Virus record (IMG/VR): IMGVR_UViG_2778261638_000005
Span: 6,684 to 70,683 of that record
Strand: one strand, 5' to 3'
Source of the DNA: a virus
Taxonomy: Duplodnaviria > Heunggongvirae > Uroviricota > Caudoviricetes
DNA: 64,000 nt
Shown: positions 29,587 through 47,820 of the stretch, in pieces
How positions within the stretch are numbered: the stretch's first letter is position 1
Layout: each line of letters begins with the position of its first letter
The notes under the pieces: generated by a model
Databases searched by the model: none
Told to the model about the DNA's origin: nothing
Seen by the model: the letters and a program-made list of their open reading frames with translations, nothing else
Made by a program: the position numbers and the translations under genes

Positions 29587-29590
29587 GGTT

Positions 29591-31663
29591 TTACCAGCCT
29601 GTAATGTAGTTATCGCCCGCGTAAATATTCAGCCCCATACCGTCCTCGGTGACGCGGGAACTGGTCAGACGTAACCCCTCGCCAAGTTCGACGCGCAGCG
29701 AGGCTTCCGCATTCACTTTTTGTTCCTGCGGTTCCTTATCCGGGGCCGTCCATTTCTGATACAGGTCGGTTACAAAACCGCCCAGATACTCCCCGGCGAC
29801 ACTGCCCAGCGTGGCACCGGCAACCGTACCCAGCGGTCCGGCAAGGCTGCCAACGGCACCGCCGAGCCATGCACCGGCTGTACTGCCAATTGCGCCTGCT
29901 TTTTCATGGGTTGACGCCTGCTCATCCATCAGGACGGGGGCAAGCTGGAGTGCCCCCATTACCGGGCCACCCAGACGTGACAACGCACGACCGGCACCTT
30001 TCCCCATCCAGCCCAGCGCCCCGGCACCTTTTGTCACAACCCGACCGATCGCACTGCCTGCAAGTTTGTTTCCGATACCGGAAAACCACCCGCCAACAGC
30101 ACGCCCGGCATCAGCCAGCTTTCCGACCGTTCCCGTAACCAGTTGCCCGGCAGCACTGCCTGCAAGCCTGCTCAGAAGACCGGATTTACCGGGTAAAGGT
30201 AATGGTGCAGGCCGTGCTGTTACCGGTACGCCGGGTGGGGGTAATGCCAGTACAGGGCGTGGTGCAGGTAATGCCAGCGGCTGTGGCCCGGACAGCAATA
30301 ACGGCTGGCGGGGTAACAGCGGGGCCATTCTTCCGCCGCTCCGTCCGCGACGACCGCCGCCACTCCCGTAGCCACCAAATCCACGGGGCCAGTTGATGAC
30401 AAACACACGCTGAATGCCAATACCCTGCAACAGCGTCTCAGACGTCATGGCATCCGGGACCGGCAGACCTGCCTGCCCACGTTTGCGGTTTCGCATCCAG
30501 CGCCACATACGACGCCCGGTTTTAAACGGATAACTGGCAACCTGCCATGAGGGTTTTGCCACGGCCCAGCCTGCTCTCAGGGCTTTATTGGCAAGCCAGA
30601 CAGACACCAGAACAGCAGCCAGTTTTTTCAGGCTGACAATATTCTGGTCAACCCATGCCAGCGCATCTTTACCCGGTTTCAGCCAGCGCCATAATTCCTG
30701 CGCCGCGATTTTTACCGTTCTGAACGTGGTCAGAAATTTCTGACCAATGTTTTCTGCCAGTGCATCAAGTTCCCCGGATTTATCCGCCATGTCGTGCCAG
30801 TTAAGCACCCGGCGCATCTCGTTCTTGATTTCTTCAAAGGGGCCGCTGTTTGCCACCTTTATGCGAAATTCAAGCAGGTTGGCTTCCATCTGGGCGAACA
30901 TCCCGTCCCAGGAGTTCATCGCACTGGCCTGTGCACCTTTTGACTGTTCTGACAGCGTACTGAATACCGTCAGAATGGATTTCATGCCCAGCTTGCCCTT
31001 TGTACCCAGATCACGGATTTTTTTAACGTCCGTTCCCGTTGCATCCGCCAGCGCCTGATAAACGTTGATACCGTAACCGGTCAGCAGGTTGGCATCCGCC
31101 GCTGTGATTTGCTGGCGGGCAAACATCTGTTTCAGTTGCAGTGAGGCACCCTGTGCAGTGGGTAAATCCCAGCCGTGCATGGCCCCCTGATCCTGCAACA
31201 TGGTGATGAACTGTTTCGTCTGTTCATCCGTCATGCCGAAGCCTTTCGACGAACGGATCTCATCAAGAACACCACTCAGCCCCCACGTGGTGTCCTTCGC
31301 GTTCTGCTTCGCCCAGGCCATCATGGCCTGCGCTCTGACCTTATCGCCGTGATACAGCGAGTTCATGGCGATGATCTGCTGCTCACGCTGGGCGGCTGCA
31401 CCAATAAACAGTTTATTGGCGGTGTAACCCACGCCAGCGATACCCAGCGCCCCGGCTGACAGCATTCGGAATGTACGGGTTGACAGTGAACCCATTCTGT
31501 CAATGGCACCAGAAACGCGCACAACCTCCATACGCAGGGCACGAAGGGAACTTTGCCCGCTACGGGACAGGGCGTTTATCTGGTTCGAATACTGGCGGGA
31601 ACGCCGGGAAAGATTGCCATTAAGATCAATAATGACAGACGCCTTTAAGCGTTTCCCGGTCAT
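29591..31663 (-). CDS. tail tape measure protein
   Basis: 690 aa, long helical N-terminal part, Pro/Gly-rich repetitive C-terminal part. Confidence 0.8.
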
Positions 31664-31807
31664 AGAGATTTCCTGATTTAACGGTGATATTGAGAGAGGG
31701 TTTTAGCCTGCTGGCAGTGCCGGAAAAAGCGGGACAGCGGGAGAGACAAGGCCCATTCCGGGCCACTTTTCAGAATAACGCCAATCGCTGTCGCCGCTTT
31801 CTCAATA

Positions 31808-32242
31808 TCATTCCGGCACCGCAGCCACTCGCCCCCGTTCTTGTGTCAGCGATGCTGCCACAGCCATGTCGTACATTTCTGTAGCCAGCGACAGACGCTG
31901 GAAGTCATCAACAGACAGCTTGCGCATCAGCGCCAGCGATAACGGGCCTTTGATGCAACCCACGCTGGCAATCTGTCGGCGCAGCATTTCCAGTCCCATC
32001 CGGGACGGGGAACTGACCAGCACCGGGCCTTCCTTGCTCATTACCAGCTTTTCAGCAGCCGCCTGGGCATCAATCAGATCGCCTGCGGTCAGTTCACGCA
32101 GCGTCACGTCATACTGCATTTCAGTCTCGTCACCGGTGCCGAACGGCAGGCCGTCTTTCAGTTTCAGCACGCCGGACTGAATTTCTGCCACAATGCTGTC
32201 ATGCAGTTCCTGTGCTTCAGGACCTAAATTCATTTCGTCCAT
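31808..32242 (-). CDS. tail assembly chaperone (Mu gp41 position)
   Basis: 144 aa between tube and tape measure. Confidence 0.55.
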   Translation of the reverse strand: MDEMNLGPEAQELHDSIVAEIQSGVLKLKDGLPFGTGDETEMQYDVTLRELTAGDLIDAQAAAEKLVMSKEGPVLVSSPSRMGLEMLRRQIASVGCIKGPLSLALMRKLSVDDFQRLSLATEMYDMAVAASLTQERGRVAAVPE

Positions 32243-32251
32243 TGTTTCCCC

Positions 32252-32608
32252 TTATGCAATGCGTTTGCTTTGTTTTGCCATCAGTACCAGCGAAATTTCG
32301 CCGCCGTCGTTTTTCGGTTCATCTGCCTGCCAGGCATTCGCCATCATCCAGGTTTCACCGGTGTCTGCCTGAAACTCTGCCGTGATGTTTTCCCAGCCGA
32401 TGATTTCATCCAGACCGATATCACCACCGCCCGGAATTTTGCATTCCAGCTTTGCGGCACGTGGTTTACCTTTCCAGCCATAAACCCGCGAGCCGGTCAC
32501 TTCTTCACGGGTGATACCGGAAGGCGTGAAGGAGGCACCTTCCATCGTTTCAAGCTCCATGCCATTGACACGGATGAACGCCACCCCCTGACGCTGATTT
32601 CCAGCCAT
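32252..32608 (-). CDS. tail tube protein (Mu M position)
   Basis: 118 aa directly after sheath. Confidence 0.7.
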   Translation of the reverse strand: MAGNQRQGVAFIRVNGMELETMEGASFTPSGITREEVTGSRVYGWKGKPRAAKLECKIPGGGDIGLDEIIGWENITAEFQADTGETWMMANAWQADEPKNDGGEISLVLMAKQSKRIA

Positions 32609-32617
32609 AAATGCTCC

Positions 32618-34105
32618 TTACAGAATGAACTGAACTTGTGCCGCGAAAATGCGGAACTGGTTAATCAGATTCGGGCCGCACAGCACATCAAGACGGTCTT
32701 TGTCGTCCTTGTTACGTGCCACATACAGCTCCTCTTTGAACGTGTCGAAATCCTCGACCAGTCCGGCGTTTTCCCATTCTTCAAACAGTGCCAGCAGCTC
32801 CGTTTTGATCACGGATGGCGTCACCACGGCCTGACCGGTGGCAAAGCGGGTGCCATCACTTGCCAGCTTGTAGTTCGGGAATTTCTGCGTGATGCGGGTT
32901 CGCAGTGAATAACGCAGATAACTCAGCGTGGCGATGGTATTCACGTTCAGATAAGACGGATCACTGTCACCGTACTTGTTTGTGCGGTACATCGTGATCA
33001 TGCGTTCAATCTGCATTTCACCACCATCATTCACGTTAAACGTGGAGATGCCGTCAAACAGCAGCGCATTACGTTCTGACCAGGTGAAACGATCCCCCAC
33101 CGCAGGCGGCATTCTTCCGGGCAACGTCAGCGTCTGGAGAGGACGCGCCGGGTCGATGGAAAGCGCCTGGCTGGCAACGGCACACAGTGTGGCGGCGTAC
33201 AGATATGACGGTTCCGGTGCACCGGCAATCCCCATACAGGAGATCAGATGATCATTACGACTGACACCAAACGTGGAAATATCCCCATACGTGCCGGACA
33301 GCACTGTCACGGCAAAGCCATCAGCCTGATTGACCGGTCCCCAGCGTTCCTGCAATTCAGTGCGTAACAGATTCAGGTTCGGTTCATCGGTATAGGGCAT
33401 CACAATATATTTGTATTGCAGATCGCCCATTCCCGCGATACTTGCGCTGATATCCGGGTTGCCATTTTTCCCGGAGGCGGCTTTGAATGCCGTGATAATC
33501 CCGTAAGGGGTGGTTTCACCCGCGTAATAGTTCCAGCGCACATCCACGGCAGATAATGCACCCGTAAATTTTGCACTCAGAACCACATCTGCATGGGTGT
33601 CATCATCCCCGCTGTCTGCGCGAACTTCTGCCGTCACCGGTAAATCCGGCTGGCCTTTGATTCGGGCAACCAGCAGGTCAGCCAGCGCCGCTCCCGTTGC
33701 ACCTGCTGCGACAGATACCGCCAGTCGCTGACCGGCAATGTAAGTCACAAGCGAGCCGTTTTCGCCTGCCGTTCCTGACAGTGAAATTTCACCGACAGCA
33801 GCATTACCGGTGCCGTTCCCCTGCGGAATACACCACAGCTCCGCCACGCGGTTAGCGTTCAGGAATGCATCTGCCATCAGTGCCAGCATGGAACCCTGAC
33901 CAAACGCCGCACTGGCCTGTGAGCCGGAACGGATACGGACAGGCACGTCTGGTGCCGCACTGGCTTTACTTCCGCTTTGCCCGAACATCAGCACGCGCTG
34001 ACGGGGTGCCGGTGTTCCGCTGACGGCATTACTGTTATCAAATTCGATATACGTCAGAGGAACGCGAACATCTGACGGGATCGCGTTAAATGAAATATCG
34101 CTCAT
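32618..34105 (-). CDS. contractile tail sheath protein (Mu L position)
   Basis: 495 aa, size and order. Confidence 0.8.
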
Positions 34106-34308
34106 TTCGATTTACTCCGTTTTTTCGGCGCAGCGTCGGTATCATCCGCCGTGTTTTCGGTGCTCCCGACTTCAACCACATCACCGGCTGCAAGGCGACG
34201 TATCCAGAAACTGTTACGGGGCTTTTCTTCTCCCTCCGGAGCCAGTAATTTCATCGTGAGCGGGTCACGGATGGCTTTTCCCGCTGCGGGTTTAATTTTC
34301 AGCATCAT
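34102..34308 (-). CDS. small Mu-type tail/head completion protein (gp38 position)
   Basis: 68 aa coupled ORF. Confidence 0.5.
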
Positions 34309-34840
34309 GATCCTTTTCCTGATTCACATTGATATGTGCGGCAAATTCCGGGGTTTCGTCCGGGAATTTCCAGGTCTGCCAGTGACGCTCGTAATCATCC
34401 AGCGAATCCATGTCCACCACGGACGGCAGCGGGGTAGTGCCACTGAACAGAACGCCGTAAAGCACCACACCGGCATTGATACGGTTGTCGTCACAAAGAT
34501 TTCTGACCTGCGTCAGGCTCATCCCGGTGGTCGGGCCAAACGTCTGACCGTTAACGCCGGCAATCAGTCGCTCCACAATCTGATAAATACCGGGCCGGTT
34601 TACCGGTTCCCCGTTCAGCAACTCCGCCACGACAAAAAATGCCCAGCGACTTTCAACTTCCCGACGCGTACGCCCCTCACCACAGCCCATCCATGCCAGA
34701 AATACCGATGGCGGGGCCAGAAAGAGACGGTGCACATCCTCGTTAGTCCATGTGCCGGTAAGGGGTTCCACCTGCCGCAGGGTTGCCCCAAACGACTCAC
34801 GAACGCGCGCCAGCAGTGCGGCTTCGGTTTCTTCCAGCAT
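34292..34840 (-). CDS. Mu gp37-like virion protein
   Basis: 182 aa, conserved order. Confidence 0.55.
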   Translation of the reverse strand: MLEETEAALLARVRESFGATLRQVEPLTGTWTNEDVHRLFLAPPSVFLAWMGCGEGRTRREVESRWAFFVVAELLNGEPVNRPGIYQIVERLIAGVNGQTFGPTTGMSLTQVRNLCDDNRINAGVVLYGVLFSGTTPLPSVVDMDSLDDYERHWQTWKFPDETPEFAAHINVNQEKDHDAEN

Positions 34841-35265
34841 CAGATAAACCCCTTCTGTTTTCGTGAAAAAACAGGCGGATCAGACTGAACCTGCACAAGA
34901 TCCTCTCCCTCCGGCGACGCTGCCGTTCTGCTTTCCACGCCGGGATCTGTTTTGCCATCGCGCACCTGTTCCAGCCAGCGCACCGTGTCCCTGTAAGTTG
35001 CGGTGATCTGCTCGGTGGGTTGTGATTCATTCAGATAAAACCAGGCCACCACGCAACACTGCCGTTTCAGCAGTGAGGGGACGACGGTAAGCGGCAGAAC
35101 AAAGCGCGCGGCGAGATAGCCATCAATAAAAGCCGAAGCATCTGCCAGTGCCTGTTCTGCCACGGCATCATCCGGCTGCCCGTCCGCTGTTTTAGGGCGG
35201 GTGAGAATATCCAGCCGCGTACGTGTATAGCGGGCGCACAGGTCATTTACCGTCGCGTAATTCAT
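34840..35265 (-). CDS. Mu gp36-like head-tail joining protein
   Basis: 141 aa, conserved order. Confidence 0.55.
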   Translation of the reverse strand: MNYATVNDLCARYTRTRLDILTRPKTADGQPDDAVAEQALADASAFIDGYLAARFVLPLTVVPSLLKRQCCVVAWFYLNESQPTEQITATYRDTVRWLEQVRDGKTDPGVESRTAASPEGEDLVQVQSDPPVFSRKQKGFI

Positions 35266-35672
35266 GCATCCGCCTCAGCCAGCGCCGCTTTGATTTGCGC
35301 ACTGCTCACCGGTTCCCCCAGCGCCGCACTGACGGCTTTCACTTTGGGTTCTCCCCCTGCGGTAAAGTGCTCCGGGTTTGCCTTATCCAGACCGGCAACG
35401 GTCGCACGGATACGGGTATTCAGATCGCCCACACCCAGAACGTCCAGCCCCCCAGCCTCAGCGAGCGTTTCTGCTGACGATGCAGATACCACAGACAGCA
35501 CGCTGTCGGCACGAATGATCGCCAGTTGTTCTTCGGTGACTTCCACGGTGTTTTCGCCACGCGTAAAGGCGATTCCGGCGCGGCGGTAGACCGGACGAAG
35601 GCATTTAATAATCGCCGTGCAAGTGATGCGAGAAGTGTCCAGCCGTTGTGAATTAAGCGAAGTGCCTGACAT
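35262..35672 (-). CDS. Mu gp35-like protein
   Basis: 136 aa, downstream of major head gene. Confidence 0.5.
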   Translation of the reverse strand: MSGTSLNSQRLDTSRITCTAIIKCLRPVYRRAGIAFTRGENTVEVTEEQLAIIRADSVLSVVSASSAETLAEAGGLDVLGVGDLNTRIRATVAGLDKANPEHFTAGGEPKVKAVSAALGEPVSSAQIKAALAEADA

Positions 35673-35738
35673 AACACATGCTCCTCCTTTTCCTTTAAAT
35701 CAGGTTAAAAGGCGGTCTGAACCGCCTTTTAATGACGG

Positions 35739-36656
35739 TTACAGGTAGTCAGCGACAACCAGTTGCAGCTTGCCCTTCATCTCGTTGGAGACGGTGGTAT
35801 TGCCATCCGCGAACAGTTCACGGTTAAGCAGTTGCTCTGCGGCTTTTTCCAGCCCGACCGGTACAACGATATGCGTCGGCTTCAGGCCCAGCTTCTTACC
35901 GCCATCACCTTCAAAAGATCGCATCAGTTGCCAGCCCTTCCAGAGGTTATCCAGCGTCAGATCGCCTTTTACCGCGACAGCCATCTGCCAGAAGCCGTAA
36001 CCGGCAGCACGGCGGGCGCTGGCACCAAACAGGAACTCGTTATCCATAAAAACGTGGTCGTCATCGATACGGGTACGTGCGACCAGCTCCGGTTTGCGGC
36101 GCTCCTGGAAAATCAGCGGTTTGACTGCGCGGGAGCAGTCCAGCAGATAGAACGGCAGACCGCTGAAGCTGTCCTGCTCAACGATGTTGGAGGTATTAAC
36201 CGCGCTGCCCGTGCCGTCCACATTCGGATATACCGGATGCTCCTTGTCGAAGAAGTTCTGACCGTCATAGCACGGCTGGGTAAAGCCATCTTTCAGAAGT
36301 TTAAAAATCAGCTCATCCGGCTGAACTGCCGCAGAACGGCCCATCTCCTGAAAAATCGGCGCATAAATACCCAAATTGTCATCGTCAAAGTCATCGCGGG
36401 AAATACCCACGGTGCCTTCAAACGTTTTATTGGCGATGGAGTAGCCATGCGCTTCCATTTGCTGAATGGTTCGCTTACCCACCCATTCTTTCAGGGTCGG
36501 GAATTTACCCAGCCAGCCATAGGTATTACTGCGGGTGGAAGAGTTCACCACCATTGCAATTTTGCTGTACTGCGACGGGGCGTCTTCAAGACCGCCCTGA
36601 AAATCCTTACGCCAGGAGGTCATCAGGGCTTTAATGGATGCCGGGGTGACAATCAT
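35739..36656 (-). CDS. Mu-type major head subunit (T)
   Basis: 305 aa after protease/scaffold gene; matches Mu T size. Confidence 0.8.
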   Translation of the reverse strand: MIVTPASIKALMTSWRKDFQGGLEDAPSQYSKIAMVVNSSTRSNTYGWLGKFPTLKEWVGKRTIQQMEAHGYSIANKTFEGTVGISRDDFDDDNLGIYAPIFQEMGRSAAVQPDELIFKLLKDGFTQPCYDGQNFFDKEHPVYPNVDGTGSAVNTSNIVEQDSFSGLPFYLLDCSRAVKPLIFQERRKPELVARTRIDDDHVFMDNEFLFGASARRAAGYGFWQMAVAVKGDLTLDNLWKGWQLMRSFEGDGGKKLGLKPTHIVVPVGLEKAAEQLLNRELFADGNTTVSNEMKGKLQLVVADYL

Positions 36657-37738
36657 TTTTCTTGTTCCTGTTTCATTTTCAGATACTCAGCCTCAGTAAT
36701 GCCGAGCGCCTTCACTGCTGCCTGTTCATCAGCAGACAGCACCGCCACCGCCGGTTTTTCCTGCGACGGGATTTTCGCTGTGGTGGTCTGCATGGCAGAT
36801 AACGCAGCGATGGGCTGTTTTTTCTCAAGCTGTGCCGACAGTGCCGCCACGCCAATCTGACCGCCAAGCTGTTCCAGATAGGTACGTTCGCTTTTGAAAA
36901 TGCGGCCTTCCTGTTCCGCCTTGTCCAGAACGGCGCTCAGGCTGGCTGTGGCGCTTTGTGCAGTCGCCTGTGCCAGTTCATCACGCAGGGCGTTGTAGCT
37001 TTCCACAGGGACGTATTTCGTCAGGTCAACGGCGGCTTTCTGTGCCTTTTCCAGTTCGGCGGATAACGACGCCACTTTTCCGGCATCTGTTTCGAGCGCA
37101 TCAAGCGCACTCAGGGCCGCGCTGGCCTGTTCATCGGTGATGTCTGCATTTTCGGGGACAGTCACCCCAAGACGCGCAAGCAGCTTGCGCAGCGTTTCAT
37201 TCATGGGTTTGTTCTCCTGTTGAAGGATGTCGGGAAGGTCTGCCGCCAGTGCGGTCAGCTTTTTCATGCCGGTGGCACCGGGGTCATTGGTCAGCGCAGC
37301 AAGGCGGATTTGCAGCACCGCACCGGAGGCGGTGTCATACGGAAAAACAGCAGAGAGATAACCAAATTCGCCGTCATCGATGCGCTGCTGGGCCGCCGCC
37401 GTCCAGCGTGGGTGGATAAATAACCCTTCACCTTCACGCCACTGCATTTCATCGGCGTTAAACCAGCCAGCCGCGACGAGTTGTTCCGGGGGTAATCCTT
37501 TGTCCTTACGTAGCTGGTTATGCTCGTAATCAATCAGCACGTCCTGGTTGAGCGCGCGAACGCCTTCAACCAGACGCCCGGCAATCTCACCGTCGATGAA
37601 CCACCCCTGACCACCTGTCACATCAAACGGGCGACCATCACGGGCACTGAAATGACCGGCAGGCAATAGCTGGCACCAGCCGTCATCGTCAATGGACAGC
37701 GCATTCAGTGCGGCAATGCCAATCGCGTGTTTTTTCAT
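36653..37738 (-). CDS. Mu I-like head protease/scaffold
   Basis: 361 aa; N-terminal protease-like domain and Ala-rich coiled-coil C-terminal scaffold domain. Confidence 0.75.
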   Translation of the reverse strand: MKKHAIGIAALNALSIDDDGWCQLLPAGHFSARDGRPFDVTGGQGWFIDGEIAGRLVEGVRALNQDVLIDYEHNQLRKDKGLPPEQLVAAGWFNADEMQWREGEGLFIHPRWTAAAQQRIDDGEFGYLSAVFPYDTASGAVLQIRLAALTNDPGATGMKKLTALAADLPDILQQENKPMNETLRKLLARLGVTVPENADITDEQASAALSALDALETDAGKVASLSAELEKAQKAAVDLTKYVPVESYNALRDELAQATAQSATASLSAVLDKAEQEGRIFKSERTYLEQLGGQIGVAALSAQLEKKQPIAALSAMQTTTAKIPSQEKPAVAVLSADEQAAVKALGITEAEYLKMKQEQEK

Positions 37739-37934
37739 GTCCTGCTGCTCATCATGGTTTGTGAGCAGTCAGTTTGCGGGAGGTGCGGGAAAATCTGGGG
37801 TTATGCTATTTGAGTACTGGAGAAAGAAAGTGGAAGGAAGATAAAACGGGATTCATACACCGTTAAATACCGGTTTAAAAATCCCGTGGCGCGTTTTAAA
37901 AAATCTGTGCGGCTGATTTCATGTCTGATTCCGT
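37739..37934 (-). promoter_or_regulatory. central intergenic region between G and I: candidate strong gyrase site and/or C-dependent late promoter
   Basis: 196-bp non-coding gap about 18.1 kb from the left end, the position where Mu carries its SGS. Confidence 0.4.
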
Positions 37935-38405
37935 TTATTGCCTCAGAGCGGCGCTGACGCGTTTTCTGATGGCATCAAAAATTTCCTGTTCCCCGGTCTT
38001 ATCCAGCCCCATATAAGGACGCGCAGGAACGCCTGCCGGGCGGGGTGCCATATCGGGTGTACCGCCCCACTGATGAATGGCAGCATAAATTTTTGGCGAA
38101 CCAATCAGGGCATAATCCTGTCCATAATCGGTGGTAATGCTGCGCGCCAGATCGCCATGCAGGGTAAGAATACTGCCCGGAACAAATCCATGATCCTGAC
38201 GCCATGCCTGCCACGAATCGCTCCATGCTTCCCAGCCTTTCCCTGTATCCGGGTCTGCCTGCCGTTCAAATGCCTGTTCCGTGGATGACAGCAGCGCCGC
38301 AGCCATCACACGGGGAATGGCGCGGTCACGTGTAACGGTTCCCAGTTCATCCAGTGCAAGCTGAATACGTCGCACATCCACGGCAACGTTCATATCAAGA
38401 CTCAC
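37935..38405 (-). CDS. Mu G-like virion morphogenesis protein
   Basis: 156 aa, between F and I. Confidence 0.7.
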   Translation of the reverse strand: MSLDMNVAVDVRRIQLALDELGTVTRDRAIPRVMAAALLSSTEQAFERQADPDTGKGWEAWSDSWQAWRQDHGFVPGSILTLHGDLARSITTDYGQDYALIGSPKIYAAIHQWGGTPDMAPRPAGVPARPYMGLDKTGEQEIFDAIRKRVSAALRQ

Positions 38406-39757
38406 TTATTCACCTCCACATGCCCCTCCAGTACGTCAATCATCCCGTCAGCAATCGCGGCTTCAAGCGACTGTGCAGATACGCGGCTGATACTGACCAG
38501 CACATCCGCACGGTCATTCTGCCTGCCGACTGTCTGTGATGTTCTGACCACAATCCGGGCCATGCCGTCACGGGTTGCCACAACATACAGCAACTGGTGG
38601 TTCTCCCTGTCCCACAATACCGCCTGTGGTTTTGCCATCAACGACGGCAGACGCTGTAAATCCTCCGGTTTCAGGGCGGCATCAGCAGTGGTCGCCAGAC
38701 TTTTTCCATTCATTACAAGCAGACGGGCGGGCATATTCCCGGTGCGCTGATATACGGCCTTCGCCACGGATCCCGTCATAAACCCCAGCGCCCGGATTTC
38801 ATGTCCGGCCCGGCGTGATTTCGCCAGACGTTTAAGCCAGAGGGAAAAAGCAAGCTGACGCTCCCGGCTGTTATTCAGTGTCTGCACAACCTGCTCACGC
38901 AGCTGCGCGTCGTGAATTTCCACCAGTTTTCGAATCAGTGCCTGATCCGTACCAAACGCCGCCGAACCCGGGTTATATGACCAGCCCACATCCGGCGTCA
39001 TTTTTACCCGACCGTTGTCAAACGTGGTTGACGATGTGCGGAAAATCTCTCCGGTGCTTTCATCCGTACCGGCATCCACTTCGCGGGTATTCATGAATGA
39101 TGCACCATAACTGACCTGTAGCCCTGGTTCTTTCATGCGGGCCGCAGACAGCGCCCGGACGCGACAGCGGCAGTTCCAGCCATTGGGCGGGTAATGCGTC
39201 TGCCAGAAAATGTCGTCATACCGGAAAACCATATTGTGCAGCCGCGCATGTTCCGGGCGTGTTCTGCCATCCATAACGGCAACGTACTGCCAGTACGGAT
39301 ACAAATCTGCGGTATTCATCATCTGTGCATAACGTCCCGCCCCGTACGCTGTACGGGTATTGACGTTATAAATGGTTGCCAGACGACGCGGACTGCCCAG
39401 TTCGATTTCCTTCGCGTTTCCCTCTGCATCCACGATGATTTGTTTTCCCCACCATCCGAGTTTTTGCAGCCGGGGGGCCAGTGTGCGGGTAAATTCCTCA
39501 CGGGTGATGCCTTCACTGACAGCCCGCTCCACTTCCTCACGGATTGTGGTCAGGACATCCATCCGGGTGGCTTTGGCAACGGTAAAGGCGCGGGCGTGCG
39601 CGTCTGCCAGTTGTTCGTACCAGTTCCAGGTGATGTTGTAGCCTTTGGCGCGGAAATACGCGACAGCCTCCTTTGGCGGGAGGCGTGCGGCATACGCCAG
39701 ATCAATGGTCTGCTGCGGCATCCAGACGCCCCCATATATCGGCAACAAAAATGGCAC
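38402..39757 (-). CDS. Mu F-like head morphogenesis protein
   Basis: 451 aa, follows portal. Confidence 0.75.
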   Translation of the reverse strand: MPFLLPIYGGVWMPQQTIDLAYAARLPPKEAVAYFRAKGYNITWNWYEQLADAHARAFTVAKATRMDVLTTIREEVERAVSEGITREEFTRTLAPRLQKLGWWGKQIIVDAEGNAKEIELGSPRRLATIYNVNTRTAYGAGRYAQMMNTADLYPYWQYVAVMDGRTRPEHARLHNMVFRYDDIFWQTHYPPNGWNCRCRVRALSAARMKEPGLQVSYGASFMNTREVDAGTDESTGEIFRTSSTTFDNGRVKMTPDVGWSYNPGSAAFGTDQALIRKLVEIHDAQLREQVVQTLNNSRERQLAFSLWLKRLAKSRRAGHEIRALGFMTGSVAKAVYQRTGNMPARLLVMNGKSLATTADAALKPEDLQRLPSLMAKPQAVLWDRENHQLLYVVATRDGMARIVVRTSQTVGRQNDRADVLVSISRVSAQSLEAAIADGMIDVLEGHVEVNK

Positions 39758-41240
39758 GGGTCAGCATGTCGATAAGTTCTGCATCATCCATCTGCGGATA
39801 TAATGAAGCGGCTTTGTTCATGGCGGCTTCCGGGCCATCTTTCAGCACAGAAAAAATGACGGGTTTCAGCAGGGGATCAACCGAACGCTGCCAGTCTTCC
39901 GGTGAGACGCCCATCCGGTCGATATCATCCTCCTGCGGGATATCTTCAGCGGATAATGCGGCCTCTTTCTGCGGACCGTTATCCATGACGACCGGTTGAG
40001 CAGTAAACACGGCTTCATCACCGACCGGTTGTGGAATATGGAGTTTTTCCTGTATCCAGGAGACCGGAATACGCATTCCCGCCGCCAGTTTCGGAATGGC
40101 GTCAGACAGTGCCGTAATATCACCCGCTTCACTGGTATCAAATACAATGCCCGGCAGGCGGTTAATATCAATGGTGCTGTCACTGTTCAGTGCCAGCAGG
40201 GGATAAATCAGGTCACGGTTAATACTGCGGGCAAGCTGGCCCACATCCGCATTACGGATTTCCCGGCGAACCTCATCATGCACTTCACCCAGCGACCGCG
40301 CACCTTTATCGCCAGCCTCTGTGGTCAGGGTGCCGCCCAGAATGGCTTTTGAAATCGCTTTTTCTGCCCAGCCAATCATCGCCATAAAAGGGTCTGACTG
40401 ACCATCTGCGGCGCTCTGAAAATCCAGCGTCATCCCCATCGGAATAATGCCACCGGCACGTCGCCCGATATCCATCACGGCCTGCATCAGCGTGGCTTTC
40501 TCGCGGTTCGTTGAGCCGGTCGGATATTTACCGACGCGCATGGGGAGTCCGTAAATTTCCAGAAACTCTGCAAAATCACGCACGGAATAGTTTTTAAAAA
40601 TAAAAGGCCAGATAAGCGTGCGCACAAGGCCATTGGTGCCGACATACCCGGTGCGGGATTTGGCCCGGTGCATAAACCAGCCGAACGGTTGCAGCTCCAG
40701 CCCGTGATAAGACGCATCACGCAGGCGTAATTCGTTCAGATTGTCGGGGTTCGCGCAGAACAGCGCCGGATCGCGATGATGCAGCGCCACCGGCACGCGC
40801 ATTTTCCCCAGCCAGCCCCATTCAATCTCCTGCATGGAATAGCCCTTGAGAATGGCATCACCGGCATCAAACAGGGCATCTTCAAACCACGCCGCATCAT
40901 GCAGATATTCATTCAGCATGTCGGCGTCTTTTTTCTCCTGTGCGCTGGCATCACGTGCCGGAGCGATGCGCCATTCCAGCGCCTGAATGGCAAGGCGGCG
41001 TTTGCTCAGTTCGGAAAAAAGGTGGGTGTCCTTTTCTTCCATATCAAAGGCCAGGTCAGCCTGTGCTGTCAGATCACCGCGTTCGGCATCACGCAGCATC
41101 TGCGCGGCCCGGTTCGGCGTCACACCACTGGAAGGATGCTCCTGCGTACGCTTCATGACCATTGCCAGCTCATCGCTGCGGGTCTGCATTTCATCGTCAA
41201 AATCAAACGGCTGCCCGGAAATATCCAGAATACGGCCCAT
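39702..41240 (-). CDS. Mu-type portal protein (gp29-like)
   Basis: 512 aa immediately after terminase large subunit. Confidence 0.8.
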   Translation of the reverse strand: MGRILDISGQPFDFDDEMQTRSDELAMVMKRTQEHPSSGVTPNRAAQMLRDAERGDLTAQADLAFDMEEKDTHLFSELSKRRLAIQALEWRIAPARDASAQEKKDADMLNEYLHDAAWFEDALFDAGDAILKGYSMQEIEWGWLGKMRVPVALHHRDPALFCANPDNLNELRLRDASYHGLELQPFGWFMHRAKSRTGYVGTNGLVRTLIWPFIFKNYSVRDFAEFLEIYGLPMRVGKYPTGSTNREKATLMQAVMDIGRRAGGIIPMGMTLDFQSAADGQSDPFMAMIGWAEKAISKAILGGTLTTEAGDKGARSLGEVHDEVRREIRNADVGQLARSINRDLIYPLLALNSDSTIDINRLPGIVFDTSEAGDITALSDAIPKLAAGMRIPVSWIQEKLHIPQPVGDEAVFTAQPVVMDNGPQKEAALSAEDIPQEDDIDRMGVSPEDWQRSVDPLLKPVIFSVLKDGPEAAMNKAASLYPQMDDAELIDMLTRAIFVADIWGRLDAAADH

Positions 41241-42895
41241 TACCAGCCCCCTCGTTCAAACTGGTGATAATCATCAAAATCATCGTTATCAACATCATCA
41301 CCACGGTGGCGTGGTGGCAGCGCCTGTATGCTGTCCTCGTCGATAACAAAACCATTCATATAAGACGCTCTGACAGCCATACAGAGCGCCACGGCAAAGT
41401 CGCCATGTCGTCGGCCTTTACCGCCTTCATCTTTTGTGCGCCCCTTATCAATCTGCGGAATACCTTTGTCCACCTTGATATGAAGCAGGTCATCAAGTGT
41501 GGTCTGGTGCCGGGCAATCGTGATGTTCTGCGCTTCAAACTCGCCTTTCAGTTTTGGCATCCACTCCTGATACCAGGATGCGGTCAGATTCACACAGTCG
41601 ATCATCTCCGGGCCATAAATCAGACGGGCGGCTTCTGCCAGATAACCGCCGTTACCGGTGGCATCAAATGCAGCGCCGGTAAAACGGGGCAAACGGGACA
41701 GAATGAATAAAAGGATTTGTCGCTGCTGGTCATAGGTCACATTACGCAGCTCCACGCGGAAACATTCGCGTTTGCGTAAGTCAGGCGTGATGGCAAGTGG
41801 CACAAACACCGTCAGGTCGCCACGGCGTGCAAAGTCTTCGCCCAGTACGTGTTTATTGAGCGGCGACAGCGCATCGAGCAACGGGAGCAGCTCCTGTTCA
41901 CACCAGTCCTGAACGATGCCGTGGCGCATTTGTGGTGTCAGCGATTCAAAATCGTCCGGTGCTTCAAAACGCAGAATCGGGATATCCCGCGCTGGCGTCA
42001 TGGCGGCTTCAATCAGCACGCGTGACAGATAAGCGCCCCCGGATTTTTTAGGAATGCAGCCGTATTCCTCGTCGGCACTCTCTTTATTCGGCGCATTCCG
42101 GTACAGGCCATCACGCCAGGCTTTTTCCGCTTCCGGCGACCACGGCTGATTCGTGACGTAACAGATACGTCGGTACAACCCGTCAGCGATGGCATCATCC
42201 AGCGTGATGCGGTGAACGCTGTAATCCTTGCGCCCCTCGCGCGCATCCTGAATGTACTGATTAAACAGATTATCGACGCCGTTATGTGTCGATATGATCC
42301 GCACGCGGGCACCCCACATGGTGAGAGCAAAAGCCGCTTTCAGGAGTTCGTCCAGGGCTTCATGAAATGCCGCCTCATCAATCACCACGTCCCCCTGCAA
42401 ACCACGCAGGTTAGACGGACGGCTTGACAGCGCCTGCACCTTAAATCCGCTGTTAGGGAAACGGATCATATAAGTGAGGATTTCTTCTTTTTTGTCGCTG
42501 TCCCAGAAGGTCTGCTCCCATACGTCAGCCTTTGCCAGTTGGTTAAAGGCGCGGGCAAACAGGGCACAGGCGGCAATGTATTCCAGCGCCATTTCCTGAC
42601 GGGACCCCACATAAAAGACGTTGCGACCACCGCGACGCCTCGGCTTTGCGGCCGTCATGACATTGCGGCCCGCTTCGGCCCATGTCAGACCGGTACGACG
42701 GGATTTTTCAGCAATACAAATCTGGCTTTCATCCTCAAACCAGCGGCGCTGATAACCCAGAAAAACCGGTTCATTGCGAGGCTGTGCTTCCCCGATATCG
42801 GTAACGATATTCACGCCCAGCAGTTCGGCTTCCTCACGCAGGTCGATTTTTCGGGGGGCATGAAGGGCTTTAAGATTGTTTTCTCTGGTGTTCAT
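41240..42895 (-). CDS. Mu-type terminase large subunit (gp28-like)
   Basis: Track ORF extends to 43087 but probable start is MNTREN at 42895; about 551 aa. Confidence 0.8.
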   Translation of the reverse strand: MNTRENNLKALHAPRKIDLREEAELLGVNIVTDIGEAQPRNEPVFLGYQRRWFEDESQICIAEKSRRTGLTWAEAGRNVMTAAKPRRRGGRNVFYVGSRQEMALEYIAACALFARAFNQLAKADVWEQTFWDSDKKEEILTYMIRFPNSGFKVQALSSRPSNLRGLQGDVVIDEAAFHEALDELLKAAFALTMWGARVRIISTHNGVDNLFNQYIQDAREGRKDYSVHRITLDDAIADGLYRRICYVTNQPWSPEAEKAWRDGLYRNAPNKESADEEYGCIPKKSGGAYLSRVLIEAAMTPARDIPILRFEAPDDFESLTPQMRHGIVQDWCEQELLPLLDALSPLNKHVLGEDFARRGDLTVFVPLAITPDLRKRECFRVELRNVTYDQQRQILLFILSRLPRFTGAAFDATGNGGYLAEAARLIYGPEMIDCVNLTASWYQEWMPKLKGEFEAQNITIARHQTTLDDLLHIKVDKGIPQIDKGRTKDEGGKGRRHGDFAVALCMAVRASYMNGFVIDEDSIQALPPRHRGDDVDNDDFDDYHQFERGGW

Positions 42896-42902
42896 AACCC
42901 TC

Positions 42903-43493
42903 TCATGCCTTACCCAGCAGCACATCACGGATACGCTGCTCCAGCTCTTCGCTGATGCCATCCTGCCCGCGCAGTTCTTCACTGACGGCGTTTGCCGCTT
43001 CTTCTGCGAATGCCTGGCGGATTTCTTTCTCGCGCCGGTGGCTGGACATTGCCGTGGATTCCAGACGCTGTGCCGCCAGCATGGCATTTTTCAGCAGGTC
43101 AATATCCACGTCAGATTCCGGGTTTTCGATTTGCCGCATCATGGCCTTAAAAAGCTGGCTGCGGGCCATTTCCAGAATCAGCTTTGTGGTTTCTCCCATT
43201 GGCTTGTCACCAAGTTCTGCGGTCAGTGCTGACGTCATTTCACGCATCTGTCGCAGGTTATGGCCTACCTGCTCGACGTTCGTCGCGTAACGGTTCAGAC
43301 CGGAACGGGAGAGTTTCATCTCATCCGGCAGGCCAGCGTCTTCAATCAGTACGTTAATTTCTTCCAGAATGCGGGCCTGTGGGATCGCTTTATCACGCAG
43401 CATTTCATGCAGCGTTTTACGTACGTTTTCCGGCAGTAAATCCACTTTTGAAGCCCGGCCCCGTGTTTTCCTGTCCATCACGCCTCCTGTCAT
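42903..43493 (-). CDS. Mu gp27-like protein (putative terminase small subunit)
   Basis: 196 aa directly upstream of the large terminase. Confidence 0.6.
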   Translation of the reverse strand: MTGGVMDRKTRGRASKVDLLPENVRKTLHEMLRDKAIPQARILEEINVLIEDAGLPDEMKLSRSGLNRYATNVEQVGHNLRQMREMTSALTAELGDKPMGETTKLILEMARSQLFKAMMRQIENPESDVDIDLLKNAMLAAQRLESTAMSSHRREKEIRQAFAEEAANAVSEELRGQDGISEELEQRIRDVLLGKA

Positions 43494-43780
43494 GCACGGG
43501 GACGAGGACGCTTGACACCGGCAACGCGGGCACGACCTTCCGCCACATCCTGACCTCGGGAGGTCAGCGTTACGACATAAAAGCCGCGCAGGTTTTCCAC
43601 GGTGACCAGTTGCTGCTCTGCCAGCCAGTCAATCTGGCCGCGAACCACATCGCGGGAAACGTTGTGTCCGTATGCATCCAGACAGTCCTGAAGGATGGAT
43701 TCGTTTGCTTCGTTATTGCAGTCCATCAGGGAACGCAGGATGACCAGACGACGGTCTTCGGTCAGAATATCGTTAATCAT
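43490..43780 (-). CDS. Mu gp26-like protein
   Basis: 96 aa, conserved position. Confidence 0.45.
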   Translation of the reverse strand: MINDILTEDRRLVILRSLMDCNNEANESILQDCLDAYGHNVSRDVVRGQIDWLAEQQLVTVENLRGFYVVTLTSRGQDVAEGRARVAGVKRPRPRA

Positions 43781-44094
43781 GAATTACTCCGGTTTACTGC
43801 GTTTTCAAGCAGCAGCTCCAGTTGATGGGAAAATGACTGCACCCGCTGGGACAGCACCCGGATATCGCCGGACAGCTCTGCAATTCGCAGGCGCATTTCG
43901 TGTACATCTTCTGTGCCAGGGATGCTGGCGTAGCGGGTTTCCATTTCGGTCATCCGGTTTTCAAGACGCTCCACACGCTCAGTGCTGGCAAAACTACGAC
44001 GCATTGCCCAGACGGCCCCACCGGCCACAACAGGCAACAGGTAAGGCCATAACGCTAAAACTGAAATCAAATCCATTATTCTGCTCCACGGCAC
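43777..44094 (-). CDS. membrane/coiled-coil protein (lysis-region)
   Basis: 105 aa with N-terminal hydrophobic helix then coiled coil. Confidence 0.4.
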   Translation of the reverse strand: MPWSRIMDLISVLALWPYLLPVVAGGAVWAMRRSFASTERVERLENRMTEMETRYASIPGTEDVHEMRLRIAELSGDIRVLSQRVQSFSHQLELLLENAVNRSNS

Positions 44095-44270
44095 CAGTGG
44101 CAGTAGTTCGCCATCGGCTGCTGTCTCAGCACATCAGGCCGCAGCTCACGACCGCAACCGGCACACAATACAGGCGGGTCATACGCCGCCGGGCGGGGAA
44201 TATCACGGGTATCCCCCTGCCAGAGTTCAGCGAGCAGCAGCGCCACCGCCCGGTTCTGGTCTTCGTTCAT
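44076..44270 (-). CDS. small Cys-pair protein (lysis-region)
   Basis: 64 aa with CAGCG...CHWC. Confidence 0.4.
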   Translation of the reverse strand: MNEDQNRAVALLLAELWQGDTRDIPRPAAYDPPVLCAGCGRELRPDVLRQQPMANYCHWCRGAE

Positions 44271-44568
44271 AAATTTCTTTCCTTCGGGTCTCCTGTTCCC
44301 GGACTGATGCCTTGTCGCGGTTGCACTGCCCGAGCGCCATCAACAGGTCAGCATTCCAGAGAAGGGATGCTCCCCACGTCAGGGGCTGTGGCATGGGCGG
44401 AACGGGCGTTGCTTCCGTCAGTTCTGCATCAGTTTCGGGCAGGATCACCACCGATGGCACGGGTGCGTTTTTCGAGTTCCCGCAACCTGTCAGCAGCAAC
44501 GGCAGGCACAGGACGAGTGCTGCAATTGTCACCGGTAATGGCGGTTGTAATTTTTTGTTTTGCATCAT
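44227..44568 (-). CDS. o-spanin (outer-membrane lipoprotein)
   Basis: Probable start MMQNKK at 44568; signal peptide with lipobox LLLTGC; partly embedded in the i-spanin gene in another frame. Confidence 0.6.
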   Translation of the reverse strand: MMQNKKLQPPLPVTIAALVLCLPLLLTGCGNSKNAPVPSVVILPETDAELTEATPVPPMPQPLTWGASLLWNADLLMALGQCNRDKASVREQETRRKEIYERRPEPGGGAAAR

Positions 44569-44815
44569 GATGTTCTGTCTCGTCTGCCAGCCGCGCGGCA
44601 CGATTTGCGGCACGGATAGCGGAAAATACCTGCATCGTCTGTTCCTGACCGTGTAACAACCATTCAGCCGTGTTGCGGGCCTGTTGCTCCGTCTGTAATT
44701 CACGGCGCAGCGTCTGGTTATCGTGGCGGGTGCTGTCCAGCCTGTGCCACAACACCCCGGACAGAACGGCGGCAAACACGGCTGCCAGCAGTAAACTTTT
44801 ACTGGCGAAGGTCAT
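44429..44815 (-). CDS. i-spanin (inner-membrane spanin subunit)
   Basis: 128 aa, N-terminal transmembrane helix and coiled-coil periplasmic domain; overlaps o-spanin and endolysin. Confidence 0.6.
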   Translation of the reverse strand: MTFASKSLLLAAVFAAVLSGVLWHRLDSTRHDNQTLRRELQTEQQARNTAEWLLHGQEQTMQVFSAIRAANRAARLADETEHHDAKQKITTAITGDNCSTRPVPAVAADRLRELEKRTRAIGGDPARN

Positions 44816-45317: not shown

Positions 45318-45408
45318 GCTTCCCTGAAAAAATGCGCTGATGGCAGTCTAAAAAATCAGATGGCAGGTGCGGGATTATGGTGACAGGAAATAACCGGCAG
45401 GATGCCGG

Positions 45409-45831: not shown

Positions 45832-45843
45832 ATTTTCCCCCGG

Positions 45844-45963
45844 TTAACAGACAGAAAGATACACCACGGCACTGATGGTTATCAGAACCACAAGGGCAAT
45901 CACTTTTATCGCACTCATCAGCGTGGACGGCCCGAAACATTCATCACTGAATTTTCTGTACAT
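45844..45963 (-). CDS. small single-pass membrane peptide (not in ORF track)
   Basis: 39 aa MYRKFSDECFGPSTLMSAIKVIALVVLITISAVVYLSVC; sits between 76-aa gene and C. Confidence 0.35.
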   Translation of the reverse strand: MYRKFSDECFGPSTLMSAIKVIALVVLITISAVVYLSVC

Positions 45964-46727: not shown

Positions 46728-46809
46728 GTTGCCCTCCAGTCATGAACGTTTTGTCGTCACAACAGAATATTGAGGGCGTAAAAAAAGCCGGATTAACCGG
46801 CTTTACTGT

Positions 46810-47747: not shown

Positions 47748-47820
47748 GATCGTACCTCCGGAAAGGGGGCGGTGCTGCAACACCGCCTGTACTATTGATA
47801 ACACTGAAAATGGAGACAAC

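What the first reader, a model, noticed from the sequence alone, without database searches (positions are those of the whole stretch)
37739..37934. Central non-coding region between G and I at the Mu strong-gyrase-site position
The only sizable intergenic gap in the head module lies about 18.1 kb from the left end, the position where Mu carries its strong gyrase site needed for efficient replicative transposition. It probably also contains a C-dependent late promoter for the I operon.
Basis: established knowledge. Interest (0 to 1): 0.35.

Follow-up and report, generated by a model that had tools for sequence, protein, structure and literature searches.

The report
Mu strong gyrase site and I-operon promoter

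Summary
Window 37739-37934 is a 196-bp non-coding spacer between minus-strand genes G and I of a 36,910-bp Mu-family prophage (window 19091-56000). It is the only sizable gap in the head module.

The spacer is 192/196 identical to phage Mu 17860-18055. Mu's records annotate three features there: the gyrase cut site, a terminator and the late promoter P_I. Transferred to the window:
- the 150-bp strong gyrase site (SGS) is 37832-37981, running 47 bp into the 3' end of G;
- the 4-bp cleavage stagger is 37915-37918;
- the terminator hairpin is 37846-37887;
- P_I is 37751-37817, 67/67 identical to Mu.

The essential first 40 bp of the right arm are 40/40 identical. Three core substitutions (-16, -8, -4) form a natural haplotype shared largely or wholly with phages D108, Mu_3F6 and vB_YpM_5. 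The cleavage centre lies at 0.490 of prophage length (Mu 0.487). The activator C is 139/140 identical.

Novelty: already known.

Side observations: the transposase is only 22% identical to MuA; the SGS core is a polymorphism cluster; phased TTTGAA repeats persist in diverged relatives; the prophage sits inside a phiV10-like prophage.

The parts
37832..37981 (-). Complete strong gyrase site (SGS), 150 bp, corresponding to Mu 17813-17962 (-65..+85 relative to the cleavage centre). It extends 47 bp beyond the reported gap into the 3' end of gene G.
   Evidence: 146/150 identical to Mu. The anatomy is from Rovinskiy et al. 2019, PMC6463007 sec. 4.3.
37942..37981 (-). SGS left arm (-65..-26), inside the G coding sequence. 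Reported to be dispensable in Mu.
   Evidence: 40/40 identical to Mu. Dispensability is from PMC6463007, PMC10052514 and PMC13284261.
37892..37941 (-). SGS core or gate segment (-25..+25). It carries three substitutions relative to Mu: -16 A>G (window 37932), -8 G>A (37924) and -4 A>G (37920).
   Evidence: 47/50 identical to Mu. The same three-base haplotype occurs in phage vB_YpM_5, in the E. coli FDAARGOS_1059 and RM8082 prophages and in several IMG/VR contigs. D108 and Mu_3F6 share the -8 and -4 changes.
37915..37918 (.). Inferred 4-bp gyrase cleavage stagger. The + strand is cut at T37914|G37915 (5'-T/GATTT-3'). The minus strand is cut between 37919 and 37918 (5'-A/AATC-3').
   Evidence: The position is transferred from the Mu annotation 'gyrase cut site 17879..17880' and from PMC11626157. 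The window sequence was checked.
37832..37891 (-). SGS right arm (+26..+85), the essential arm that wraps the GyrA C-terminal domain. It contains A/T tracts phased at about one helical repeat.
   Evidence: 59/60 identical to Mu, and the first 40 nt are 40/40 identical. The 10-11 bp A/T periodicity is at about the 99th percentile of the window. Only one singleton variant falls between +7 and +83 among 23 relatives. Phased TTTGAA/TTTTAA elements are kept in diverged relatives.
37840..37887 (-). Probable intrinsic terminator closing the upstream late (lys to G) transcript. The hairpin is at 37887-37846 and a UUUUAU tract at 37845-37840. It lies inside the SGS right arm.
   Evidence: Identical to the TransTermHP terminator annotated in AF083977 at 17908-17953. 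The RNA fold gives -19.8 kcal/mol with z = -2.9. The simple consensus scanner did not call it.
37751..37817 (-). C-dependent late promoter P_I of the I-Z-T (head) operon.
   Evidence: 67/67 identical to Mu P_I, AF083977 17977-18043. It shares the CATAACCCC-type box with Plys, PP and Pmom, all of which are present in the window. No sigma-70 consensus promoter was found, as expected for an activator-dependent promoter.
37748..37750 (-). Ribosome-binding site of gene I, as annotated in Mu. The I start codon is at 37738-37736.
   Evidence: Transferred from AF083977 18044-18046. The sequence is identical.
45409..45831 (-). Gene C, the Mor-family late activator that would switch on P_I.
   Evidence: 139/140 aa identical to Mu C. 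Pfam Mor, E = 9e-34.
19091..56000 (-). The whole Mu-family prophage (36,910 bp), whose ends the SGS is thought to help bring together.
   Evidence: The boundaries were set by comparison with the FDAARGOS_1059 prophage and with the uninterrupted phiV10 sequence. Genes A and B are present (Pfam Mu-transpos_C and Phage-MuB_C).

Best explanation
The spacer is the orthologue of the central regulatory and topological region of phage Mu. Read on the minus strand, it contains three stacked elements.

(1) Strong gyrase site. It starts inside the last 47 bp of G. Host DNA gyrase binds with its gate segment on the core, cleaves with a 4-bp stagger at window 37915-37918, and wraps the phased, bendable right arm (37832-37891) around one GyrA C-terminal domain. 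Highly processive supercoiling from this central site is thought to extrude the prophage as a plectonemic loop with the SGS at its apex. This aligns the two prophage ends, each about 18 kb away, so that the transposase can synapse them when replicative transposition begins after induction.

(2) Terminator. A hairpin plus U-tract inside the right arm ends the upstream late transcript.

(3) Promoter P_I. It lacks a -35 element and is switched on by the phage C protein to transcribe I, Z, T and the downstream head genes.

Shown here: sequence identity with the characterised Mu elements, the central position, an intact activator, an intact transposition module, and the conservation pattern. Inferred from Mu literature: gyrase binding and cleavage, the role in end synapsis, and C-dependence in this particular element.
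For: - Identity: 192/196 over the spacer and 146/150 over the defined SGS. The essential first 40 nt of the right arm are 40/40, the terminator 46/46 and P_I 67/67.
- Annotation: the Mu records annotate a gyrase cut site, a terminator, the late promoter and an RBS in exactly this interval.
- Cleavage sequence: the window has 5'-T/GATTT-3', as reported for Mu SGS DNA in PMC11626157.
- Position: the site lies at 0.490 of prophage length, against Mu 0.487 and the FDAARGOS_1059 prophage 0.493. The literature says a central position is needed for optimal function (PMC6463007, PMC10052514).
- Core substitutions: all three are natural alleles. Phages D108 and Mu_3F6 share -8 and -4 and carry a different base at -16; phage vB_YpM_5 carries all three.
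- Conservation: the right arm is nearly invariant among 23 relatives. Relatives whose G is only 54-85% identical keep a 176-205 bp spacer. Six of the seven diverged representatives examined (G 55-85% identical) keep phased TTT(G/A)AA elements spaced 20-21, 11 and 10 bp apart at a fixed distance from the G stop codon. The O157 Sp18-like spacer has only one such element, but it aligns with Mu over a conserved right-arm block.
- Other parts: C is 139/140 identical, and all four late promoters are present with a shared box. Genes A and B are present.
- Proxy tests: in-register correlation with the Topo-Seq consensus GC pattern is at the 99.85th percentile of the window, and right-arm 10-11 bp A/T periodicity is at about the 99th percentile.
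Against: - No biochemical or genetic test exists for this element.
- The three substitutions lie in the functionally critical gate segment. The -8 change alters the bottom-strand -7G/-8C step described as a gyrase-induced bend site (PMC6463007). Site strength could therefore differ from Mu's.
- The proxy motif scan does not rank the site first, even in Mu itself, so it adds little.
- The transposase is only 22% identical to MuA and the ends differ. Dependence of this transposition system on the SGS is extrapolated.
- The in-house terminator scanner did not call the hairpin.
Confidence: 0.9

Rival explanations
1. The spacer is only a transcription boundary (terminator plus P_I). In this element the gyrase site is weakened or non-functional because of the three gate-segment substitutions, or because the unrelated transposase does not need it.
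For: The three substitutions fall in the core at -16, -8 and -4, and -8 hits a described bend step. The transposase is 22% identical to MuA and the ends are different.
Against: The -8 and -4 changes are present in D108 and Mu_3F6, and all three changes are present in vB_YpM_5. All of these are isolated phages. The essential right arm is unchanged. The 4-bp stagger and its +/-3 flanking bases are unchanged. The site is still exactly central. The right arm stays conserved across relatives, which argues for continued selection.
Confidence: 0.07
2. The spacer encodes a small protein (D108 'gene 31.5', or the antisense ORF annotated in Mu_3F6) or a structured small RNA.
For: D108 (GQ357916) annotates a 42-codon CDS '31.5' in the spacer, and LR595867 annotates an antisense hypothetical protein. 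The window has a 50-aa ORF on the + strand at 37692-37844.
Against: The D108 ORF begins with ATC (Ile), not a canonical start codon, and the window has no ORF of at least 20 aa on the phage coding strand within the spacer. The antisense ORFs overlap the promoter and the I start, and they are not annotated in the curated Mu record. There is no Rfam match. The only stable structure is the terminator hairpin.
Confidence: 0.02
3. The gap is non-functional filler, and its similarity to Mu reflects recent common descent only.
For: The close relatives are 98-100% identical everywhere, so identity alone does not prove constraint.
Against: Relatives whose G is only 54-85% identical still keep a spacer of 176-205 bp. 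Six of the seven diverged representatives keep phased TTTGAA repeats, and all keep a C-box-like element, while the sequence in between has changed. The Mu element itself has been characterised experimentally.
Confidence: 0.01

Closest known systems
[quoted passage not shown] 2006), Mu 17813-17962
   Same: Same position between G and I. 146/150 bp are identical. The cleavage tetranucleotide, the left arm and the essential part of the right arm are identical. The location in a ~37-kb transposable prophage is equally central.
   Different: There are three gate-segment substitutions (-16 A>G, -8 G>A, -4 A>G) and one at +84 (T>C). The host element has a transposase only 22% identical to MuA, a B protein 44% identical, and different terminal sequences.
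SGS region of phages D108, Mu_3F6 and Yersinia phage vB_YpM_5, and of E. coli Mu-family prophages (e.g. FDAARGOS_1059)
   Same: The FDAARGOS_1059 prophage and IMG/VR contigs L018, L021 and L022 have a 196-bp spacer identical to the window's. D108 and Mu_3F6 share the -8, -4 and +84 alleles. vB_YpM_5 shares -16, -8 and -4. The early region and ends also resemble those of FDAARGOS_1059 and vB_YpM_5.
   Different: D108 and Mu_3F6 have T instead of G at -16. There are a few differences in the promoter-proximal part.
Mu C-dependent late promoters (Plys, P_I, PP, Pmom; Margolin, Rao & Howe 1989, PMID 2522923 as cited in AF083977)
   Same: P_I is 67/67 identical. The shared CATAACCCC-type box is at the same position in all four promoters in the window. 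The activator C is 139/140 identical.
   Different: Nothing detectable for P_I. Plys differs at 3 of 67 positions.
Central SGS of the E. coli O157:H7 Sakai Mu-like prophage (Sp18), reported as the only other site able to replace the Mu SGS (Oram & Pato 2004, as summarised in PMC10052514)
   Same: Same G-I intergenic position. A short conserved right-arm block is shared (GATTTTnnAACCnGTATTTAACGG).
   Different: The rest of the spacer is not alignable, and the G protein is only about 54% identical. The window's site is the Mu type, not the Sp18 type.
Plasmid strong gyrase sites (pSC101, pBR322) and the Topo-Seq 130-bp gyrase motif (Sutormin et al. 2019, PMC6379681)
   Same: Same general architecture: a cleavage core flanked by regions whose GC/AT content varies with a ~10.7-bp period. 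The window site correlates with the consensus GC pattern in register, at the 99.85th percentile.
   Different: There is no sequence homology. According to the literature these sites do not support Mu replication (PMC10052514).

Membership tests
Mu strong gyrase site (SGS) | Sequence homology to the experimentally defined 150-bp Mu SGS (-65..+85) | tested here: met
   146/150 identical. The differences are at -16, -8, -4 and +84.
Mu strong gyrase site (SGS) | Essential right arm (+26..+85, with the first 40 nt critical) carrying phased bending signals | tested here: met
   The first 40 nt are 40/40 identical and the whole arm is 59/60. The 10-11 bp A/T periodicity is at about the 99th percentile of the window. 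The requirement itself is from PMC6463007 and PMC13284261.
Mu strong gyrase site (SGS) | Gate segment with the mapped cleavage sequence (4-bp stagger; 5'-T/GATTT-3' on one strand) | tested here: met
   The + strand at window 37914-37919 reads T|GATTT. The stagger and its +/-3 flanks are identical to Mu. Three substitutions lie elsewhere in the gate segment, and their effect on strength is unknown.
Mu strong gyrase site (SGS) | Central position between the two ends of a transposable prophage | tested here: met
   The cleavage centre is 18,084 bp from the left end and 18,826 bp from the right end, a fraction of 0.490 against Mu's 0.487.
Mu strong gyrase site (SGS) | Resides in an element with a Mu-type transposition module (A transposase and B ATPase) | tested here: met
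   Pfam finds Mu-transpos_C and HTH_Tnp_Mu_1 in the 695-aa A protein, and Phage-MuB_C plus an AAA domain in B. However, A is only 22% identical to MuA.
Mu strong gyrase site (SGS) | High score with the Topo-Seq gyrase position-weight matrix (Mu SGS scores 14.3 and is the top site in Mu) | tested here: inconclusive
   The matrix (Table DS10) is not held. A proxy built from the published consensus places the site at the 99.85th percentile, but it fails the positive control of ranking the Mu SGS first in Mu.
Mu strong gyrase site (SGS) | Single strong quinolone-induced gyrase cleavage, a very long-lived gyrase complex, and processive supercoiling | not testable with these tools
   This needs biochemistry or Topo-Seq.
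Mu strong gyrase site (SGS) | Deletion delays replicative transposition after induction | not testable with these tools
   This needs genetics on a lysogen.
Mu C-dependent late promoter (P_I) | Homology to the mapped Mu P_I, including the box shared by the four late promoters | tested here: met
   67/67 identical. The CATAACCCC-type box is shared with Plys, PP and Pmom in the window.
Mu C-dependent late promoter (P_I) | No recognisable -35 or sigma-70 consensus (activator dependence) | tested here: met
   The consensus scan finds no sigma-70-type promoter in 37600-38100 on either strand.
Mu C-dependent late promoter (P_I) | The cognate activator C is encoded by the same element | tested here: met
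   Window 45409-45831 (-) is 139/140 aa identical to Mu C and matches Pfam Mor.
Mu C-dependent late promoter (P_I) | C-dependent transcription start upstream of I | not testable with these tools
   This needs 5'-end mapping in an induced lysogen.
Intrinsic (rho-independent) terminator | Stable GC-containing hairpin followed directly by a U-tract, downstream of a stop codon | tested here: inconclusive
   The hairpin folds at -19.8 kcal/mol with z = -2.9 and is followed by UUUUAU. It is identical to the TransTermHP prediction in AF083977. The long interrupted loop means the simple scanner does not call it.

The most novel reading that the evidence does not exclude
The gyrase-site core may be under tuning or diversifying pressure, or may be mutated by gyrase itself, while the wrapping arm is held fixed. 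Among 23 close Mu-family relatives, the densest cluster of variable positions in 1.1 kb is the 23 bp around the cleavage site (7 sites). The adjacent 77 bp of the right arm have one singleton. One natural allele (17881 G>C in E. coli RM8082) equals the single base by which the pMP1000-derived laboratory 'Mu SGS' fragment differs from the Mu reference. In addition, the same SGS serves an element whose transposase is only 22% identical to MuA. That would make the SGS a transposase-independent, purely topological module that is exchanged along with the late genes.
Probability: 0.25. Interest if true: 0.4.

Novelty: already known. Interest (0 to 1): 0.12.

Why it matters
The Mu SGS is the textbook example of a single DNA site that directs gyrase to organise a 37-kb element into its own supercoiled domain, and it is the standard substrate for gyrase structural and single-molecule work. 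Finding it intact in another Mu-family prophage adds no new biology. It does confirm that the prophage is probably competent for replicative transposition. It also gives a natural allele series in the gate segment, and a natural pairing of the Mu SGS with a very different transposase. Both could be used to ask which SGS features set gyrase strength, and whether SGS function really is independent of the transposase.

Tried and rejected
The ends really do differ from Mu's. They were located instead by comparison with the FDAARGOS_1059 prophage and with uninterrupted phiV10.

(2) The Topo-Seq gyrase PWM could not be obtained. Table DS10 of PMC6379681 was truncated in the stored supplement, and neither PMC10117906 nor bioRxiv 2025.10.21.683783 holds it.

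(3) A proxy scan was run using the GC/AT pattern of the published 133-bp consensus. The SGS scores high and is register-dependent, but it is not the top site even in Mu. The proxy therefore fails its positive control and was not used as evidence of membership.

(4) The primary Pato and Oram papers (PMC1347280, PMC438558, PMC55030) are not held. The SGS anatomy was taken from secondary descriptions instead.

(5) The exact nuB1 and nuB103 base changes could not be established. The PMC6463007 figure legend (transitions at +/-3) and the pMP1000-derived fragment in PMC6379681 (G>C at +4) do not agree. No claim is made that any window allele is a nuB allele.

(6) A small protein or small RNA in the spacer was rejected.

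(7) The consensus terminator and promoter scanner found nothing in the spacer. This is expected for an activator-dependent promoter and a long-loop hairpin.

(8) A GTDB scan with the G protein returned only two loci. The IMG/VR scan gave the useful relatives.

Full report
**Observation.** The window carries a Mu-family prophage on its minus strand. ORF 37935..38405 (156 aa) and ORF 36653..37738 (361 aa) flank a 196-bp gap at exactly the reported coordinates, 37739..37934. The two proteins are 155/156 and 353/361 identical to Mu G and Mu I, and they hit Pfam Phage_tail_S and Mu-like_Pro. Every other junction in the head module overlaps or is at most 7 bp, apart from a 66-bp gap after the major head gene T. 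'The only sizable intergenic gap in the head module' is therefore correct.

**Prophage boundaries.** I fixed these by aligning the window with a closely related prophage in E. coli FDAARGOS_1059 and with the uninterrupted phiV10 sequence. The left (c) end is at window 56000 and the right end at 19091, giving 36,910 bp.

**What it is.** A blastn of the region against phage records gives 98.3-99.3% identity over 901 bp to Mu, D108, SfMu, Mu_3F6, PhiR68_1 and several Yersinia Mu-like phages. In both Mu records the interval between G and I is annotated:
- 'gyrase cut site' at 17879..17880;
- a TransTermHP terminator at 17908-17953;
- a 'late promoter, PMID 2522923' at 17977-18043;
- the I ribosome-binding site at 18044-18046.

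The window spacer aligns without gaps to Mu 17860-18055 with four substitutions. The coordinate mapping is: Mu coordinate m corresponds to window 55794 - m.

**SGS anatomy from the literature.** The SGS has a dispensable left arm (-65..-26), a gate segment (-25..+25) and an essential right arm (+26..+85, with the first 40 nt critical). Optimal function requires a central position in the prophage (PMC6463007 sec. 4.3, PMC10052514, PMC13284261). The numbering can be checked internally. The '+7G +8C' on the top strand and the '-7G -8C' on the bottom strand fall at Mu 17884-85 and 17871-70. This puts the cleavage centre between 17877 and 17878.

**The SGS in the window.** The 150-bp SGS is at 37832-37981, so it reaches 47 bp past the reported gap into the 3' end of G.
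- The left arm is 40/40 identical to Mu.
- The gate segment is 47/50.
- The right arm is 59/60, and its critical first 40 nt are 40/40.
- The + strand at 37914-37919 reads T|GATTT, the cleavage sequence described for Mu SGS DNA in the gyrase cryoEM study (PMC11626157).
- The cleavage centre is 18,084 bp from the left end and 18,826 bp from the right, a fraction of 0.490. Mu is 0.487 and the FDAARGOS_1059 prophage 0.493.

**The differences from Mu.** The substitutions are at -16 (A>G), -8 (G>A), -4 (A>G) and +84 (T>C). They are not private to this window. The identical 196-bp spacer occurs in the FDAARGOS_1059 prophage and in three IMG/VR contigs. The -8 and -4 alleles occur in phages D108 and Mu_3F6, and all three core alleles occur in phage vB_YpM_5 and in E. 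coli RM8082. At +84, Mu itself carries the minority allele. The -8 change alters the bottom-strand -7G/-8C step, which is described as one of the two gyrase-induced bend sites. A quantitative effect on site strength therefore cannot be excluded. However, the presence of these alleles in isolated, propagating phages argues against loss of function.

**Promoter and terminator.** P_I (window 37817..37751, minus strand) is 67/67 identical to Mu. The other three late promoters are also present: Plys 64/67, PP 67/67 and Pmom 67/67. All four share a CATAACCCC-type box at the same position. The activator C is 139/140 aa identical and belongs to the Mor family. No sigma-70 consensus promoter is found in the spacer, as expected for an activator-dependent promoter.

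The terminator hairpin (37887-37846, followed by UUUUAU) folds at -19.8 kcal/mol with z = -2.9, and it is identical to the one annotated in Mu. It lies inside the SGS right arm, so the same 60 bp serve as the gyrase-wrapping arm on DNA and as a terminator on RNA. The simple scanner did not call it, because the loop is long and interrupted.

**Comparative support.** I extracted the G-I spacer from 24 further loci (IMG/VR and GTDB) and from several phage and E. coli records. Every relative, down to 54% G identity, keeps a spacer of 176-205 bp.

Among 23 close relatives, 1,101 bp around the spacer contain 56 variable sites. The densest 23-bp window in the whole region is Mu 17862-17884, the cleavage core, with 7 variable sites against a mean of about 1.2. 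The 77 bp from +7 to +83 have a single singleton.

In six of the seven diverged representatives (G 55-85% identical) the spacer sequence is largely different. It still carries TTT(G/A)AA elements that start 33-37 nt after the G stop codon and are spaced 20-21, 11 and 10 bp apart, that is, in helical phase. These fit the 'phased bending signals' ascribed to the essential right arm. The O157 Sp18-like spacer has only one such element, but it aligns with Mu over a short right-arm block (GATTTTnnAACCnGTATTTAACGG). Its SGS is reported to be the only one able to replace Mu's (PMC10052514).

**Motif tests.** The published Topo-Seq PWM ranks the Mu SGS first in Mu (PMC6379681), but I could not retrieve it. 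A proxy based on the GC/AT pattern of the published consensus shows the expected register dependence: matches fall from about 80 to about 45 of 133 when shifted half a helical turn. It places the window site at the 99.85th percentile. It does not rank the true SGS first even in Mu, so I treat it as weak support only. The 10-11 bp A/T periodicity of the right arm is at about the 99th percentile of the window.

**Rivals.**
- A small ORF. D108 annotates 'gene 31.5' in the spacer, but it starts with ATC, and the window has no canonical ORF of at least 20 aa on the phage strand there.
- A structured RNA. No Rfam family matches.
- A transcription boundary with a dead gyrase site. This cannot be excluded without an assay. 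It is disfavoured by the unchanged right arm, the unchanged cleavage tetranucleotide, the central position, and the occurrence of the same alleles in active phages.

**Context worth recording.**
- The element is a mosaic. Its late region is about 98% Mu. Its transposase is only 22% identical to MuA, its B protein is 44% identical, and its terminal sequences differ from Mu's. The Mu-type SGS is thus paired naturally with a very different transposition module. This fits the view that the SGS acts through DNA topology rather than through contacts with the transposase.
- The prophage is inserted in the replication gene P of a phiV10-like (Uetakevirus) prophage. None of the 5,426 complete E. coli genomes searched has this junction.

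**Verdict.** The feature is the already-known Mu SGS, terminator and P_I region, so interest is low. The only mildly novel threads are the polymorphism cluster in the gate segment, the conserved phased repeats in diverged relatives, and the pairing with a divergent transposase.

Noticed in passing
window 19091-56000 within 1-64000; junctions at 56000/56001 and 19090/19091: The Mu-family prophage is inserted inside the replication gene P of a phiV10-like (Uetakevirus) prophage, so this is a prophage within a prophage. The empty site is phiV10 34939|34940. The two flanks share only GTGC (4 bp) rather than a clean 5-bp target duplication. None of 5,426 complete E. coli genomes has this junction.
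   Followed up: partly
window 51710-56000 (early region and left end) and 19091-19190 (right end): The element is a mosaic. Its late genes are about 98% Mu, but its transposase is only 22% identical to MuA and its B protein 44%. Its ends also differ from Mu's: the left end reads TATAGAGAGGTAAATCATTTGATAC..., with repeated ATTTGATAC motifs at both ends. The same module is found in E. coli FDAARGOS_1059 and in Yersinia phage vB_YpM_5.
   Followed up: partly
window 37910-37932 (Mu 17862-17884): Among 23 close Mu-family relatives, the 23 bp around the gyrase cleavage site form the densest cluster of variable positions in 1.1 kb (7 sites against a mean of about 1.2). The adjacent right arm is almost invariant. 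This could reflect tuning of site strength, gyrase-associated mutagenesis, or two old haplotypes recombining.
   Followed up: partly
L013 (E. coli RM8082), position equivalent to Mu 17881 / window 37913: This natural prophage carries G>C at +4. That is the only base by which the pMP1000-derived 'Mu SGS' fragment of Sutormin et al. 2019 differs from the Mu reference. pMP1000 is described elsewhere as carrying a nuB up-mutation of the SGS. The published descriptions of the nuB changes are inconsistent, so the equivalence is not established.
   Followed up: partly
L011, L015, L016, L033, L035, L036: first ~90 nt after the G stop codon: Diverged Mu-family prophages (G 55-85% identical) have a largely different G-I spacer. 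They keep three or four TTTGAA/TTTAAA elements spaced 20-21, 11 and 10 bp apart, starting 33-37 nt after the G stop codon. This is probably the conserved wrapping arm of their own gyrase sites.
   Followed up: partly
window 37840-37891: The terminator hairpin of the upstream late transcript lies entirely within the essential right arm of the SGS. One stretch therefore serves both as a DNA-bending and wrapping signal and as an RNA terminator.
   Followed up: partly
window ~20750-23840: The invertible G segment (tail-fibre S/U region) is in the opposite orientation to the Mu reference, and part of it is only about 87% identical.
   Followed up: no
window 46167-46727 and neighbourhood (45960-46760): Between mor and C the prophage carries sequence that is not in Mu. 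The related FDAARGOS_1059 prophage annotates a glycoside hydrolase family 108 protein at this position, in addition to the Mu-type endolysin downstream of C.
   Followed up: no
L006 (D108) 472-600; window 37801-37929 (-): D108 'gene 31.5', annotated inside the SGS and terminator region, starts with ATC and has no canonical start codon. It looks like an annotation artefact.
   Followed up: yes
L012 (E. coli O157:H7 strain 7409) 1157-1237: In the Sp18-like Mu-family prophage, RefSeq annotates a 'tRNA-OTHER' on the opposite strand between the F and G homologues. This feature is absent from the window's prophage.
   Followed up: no
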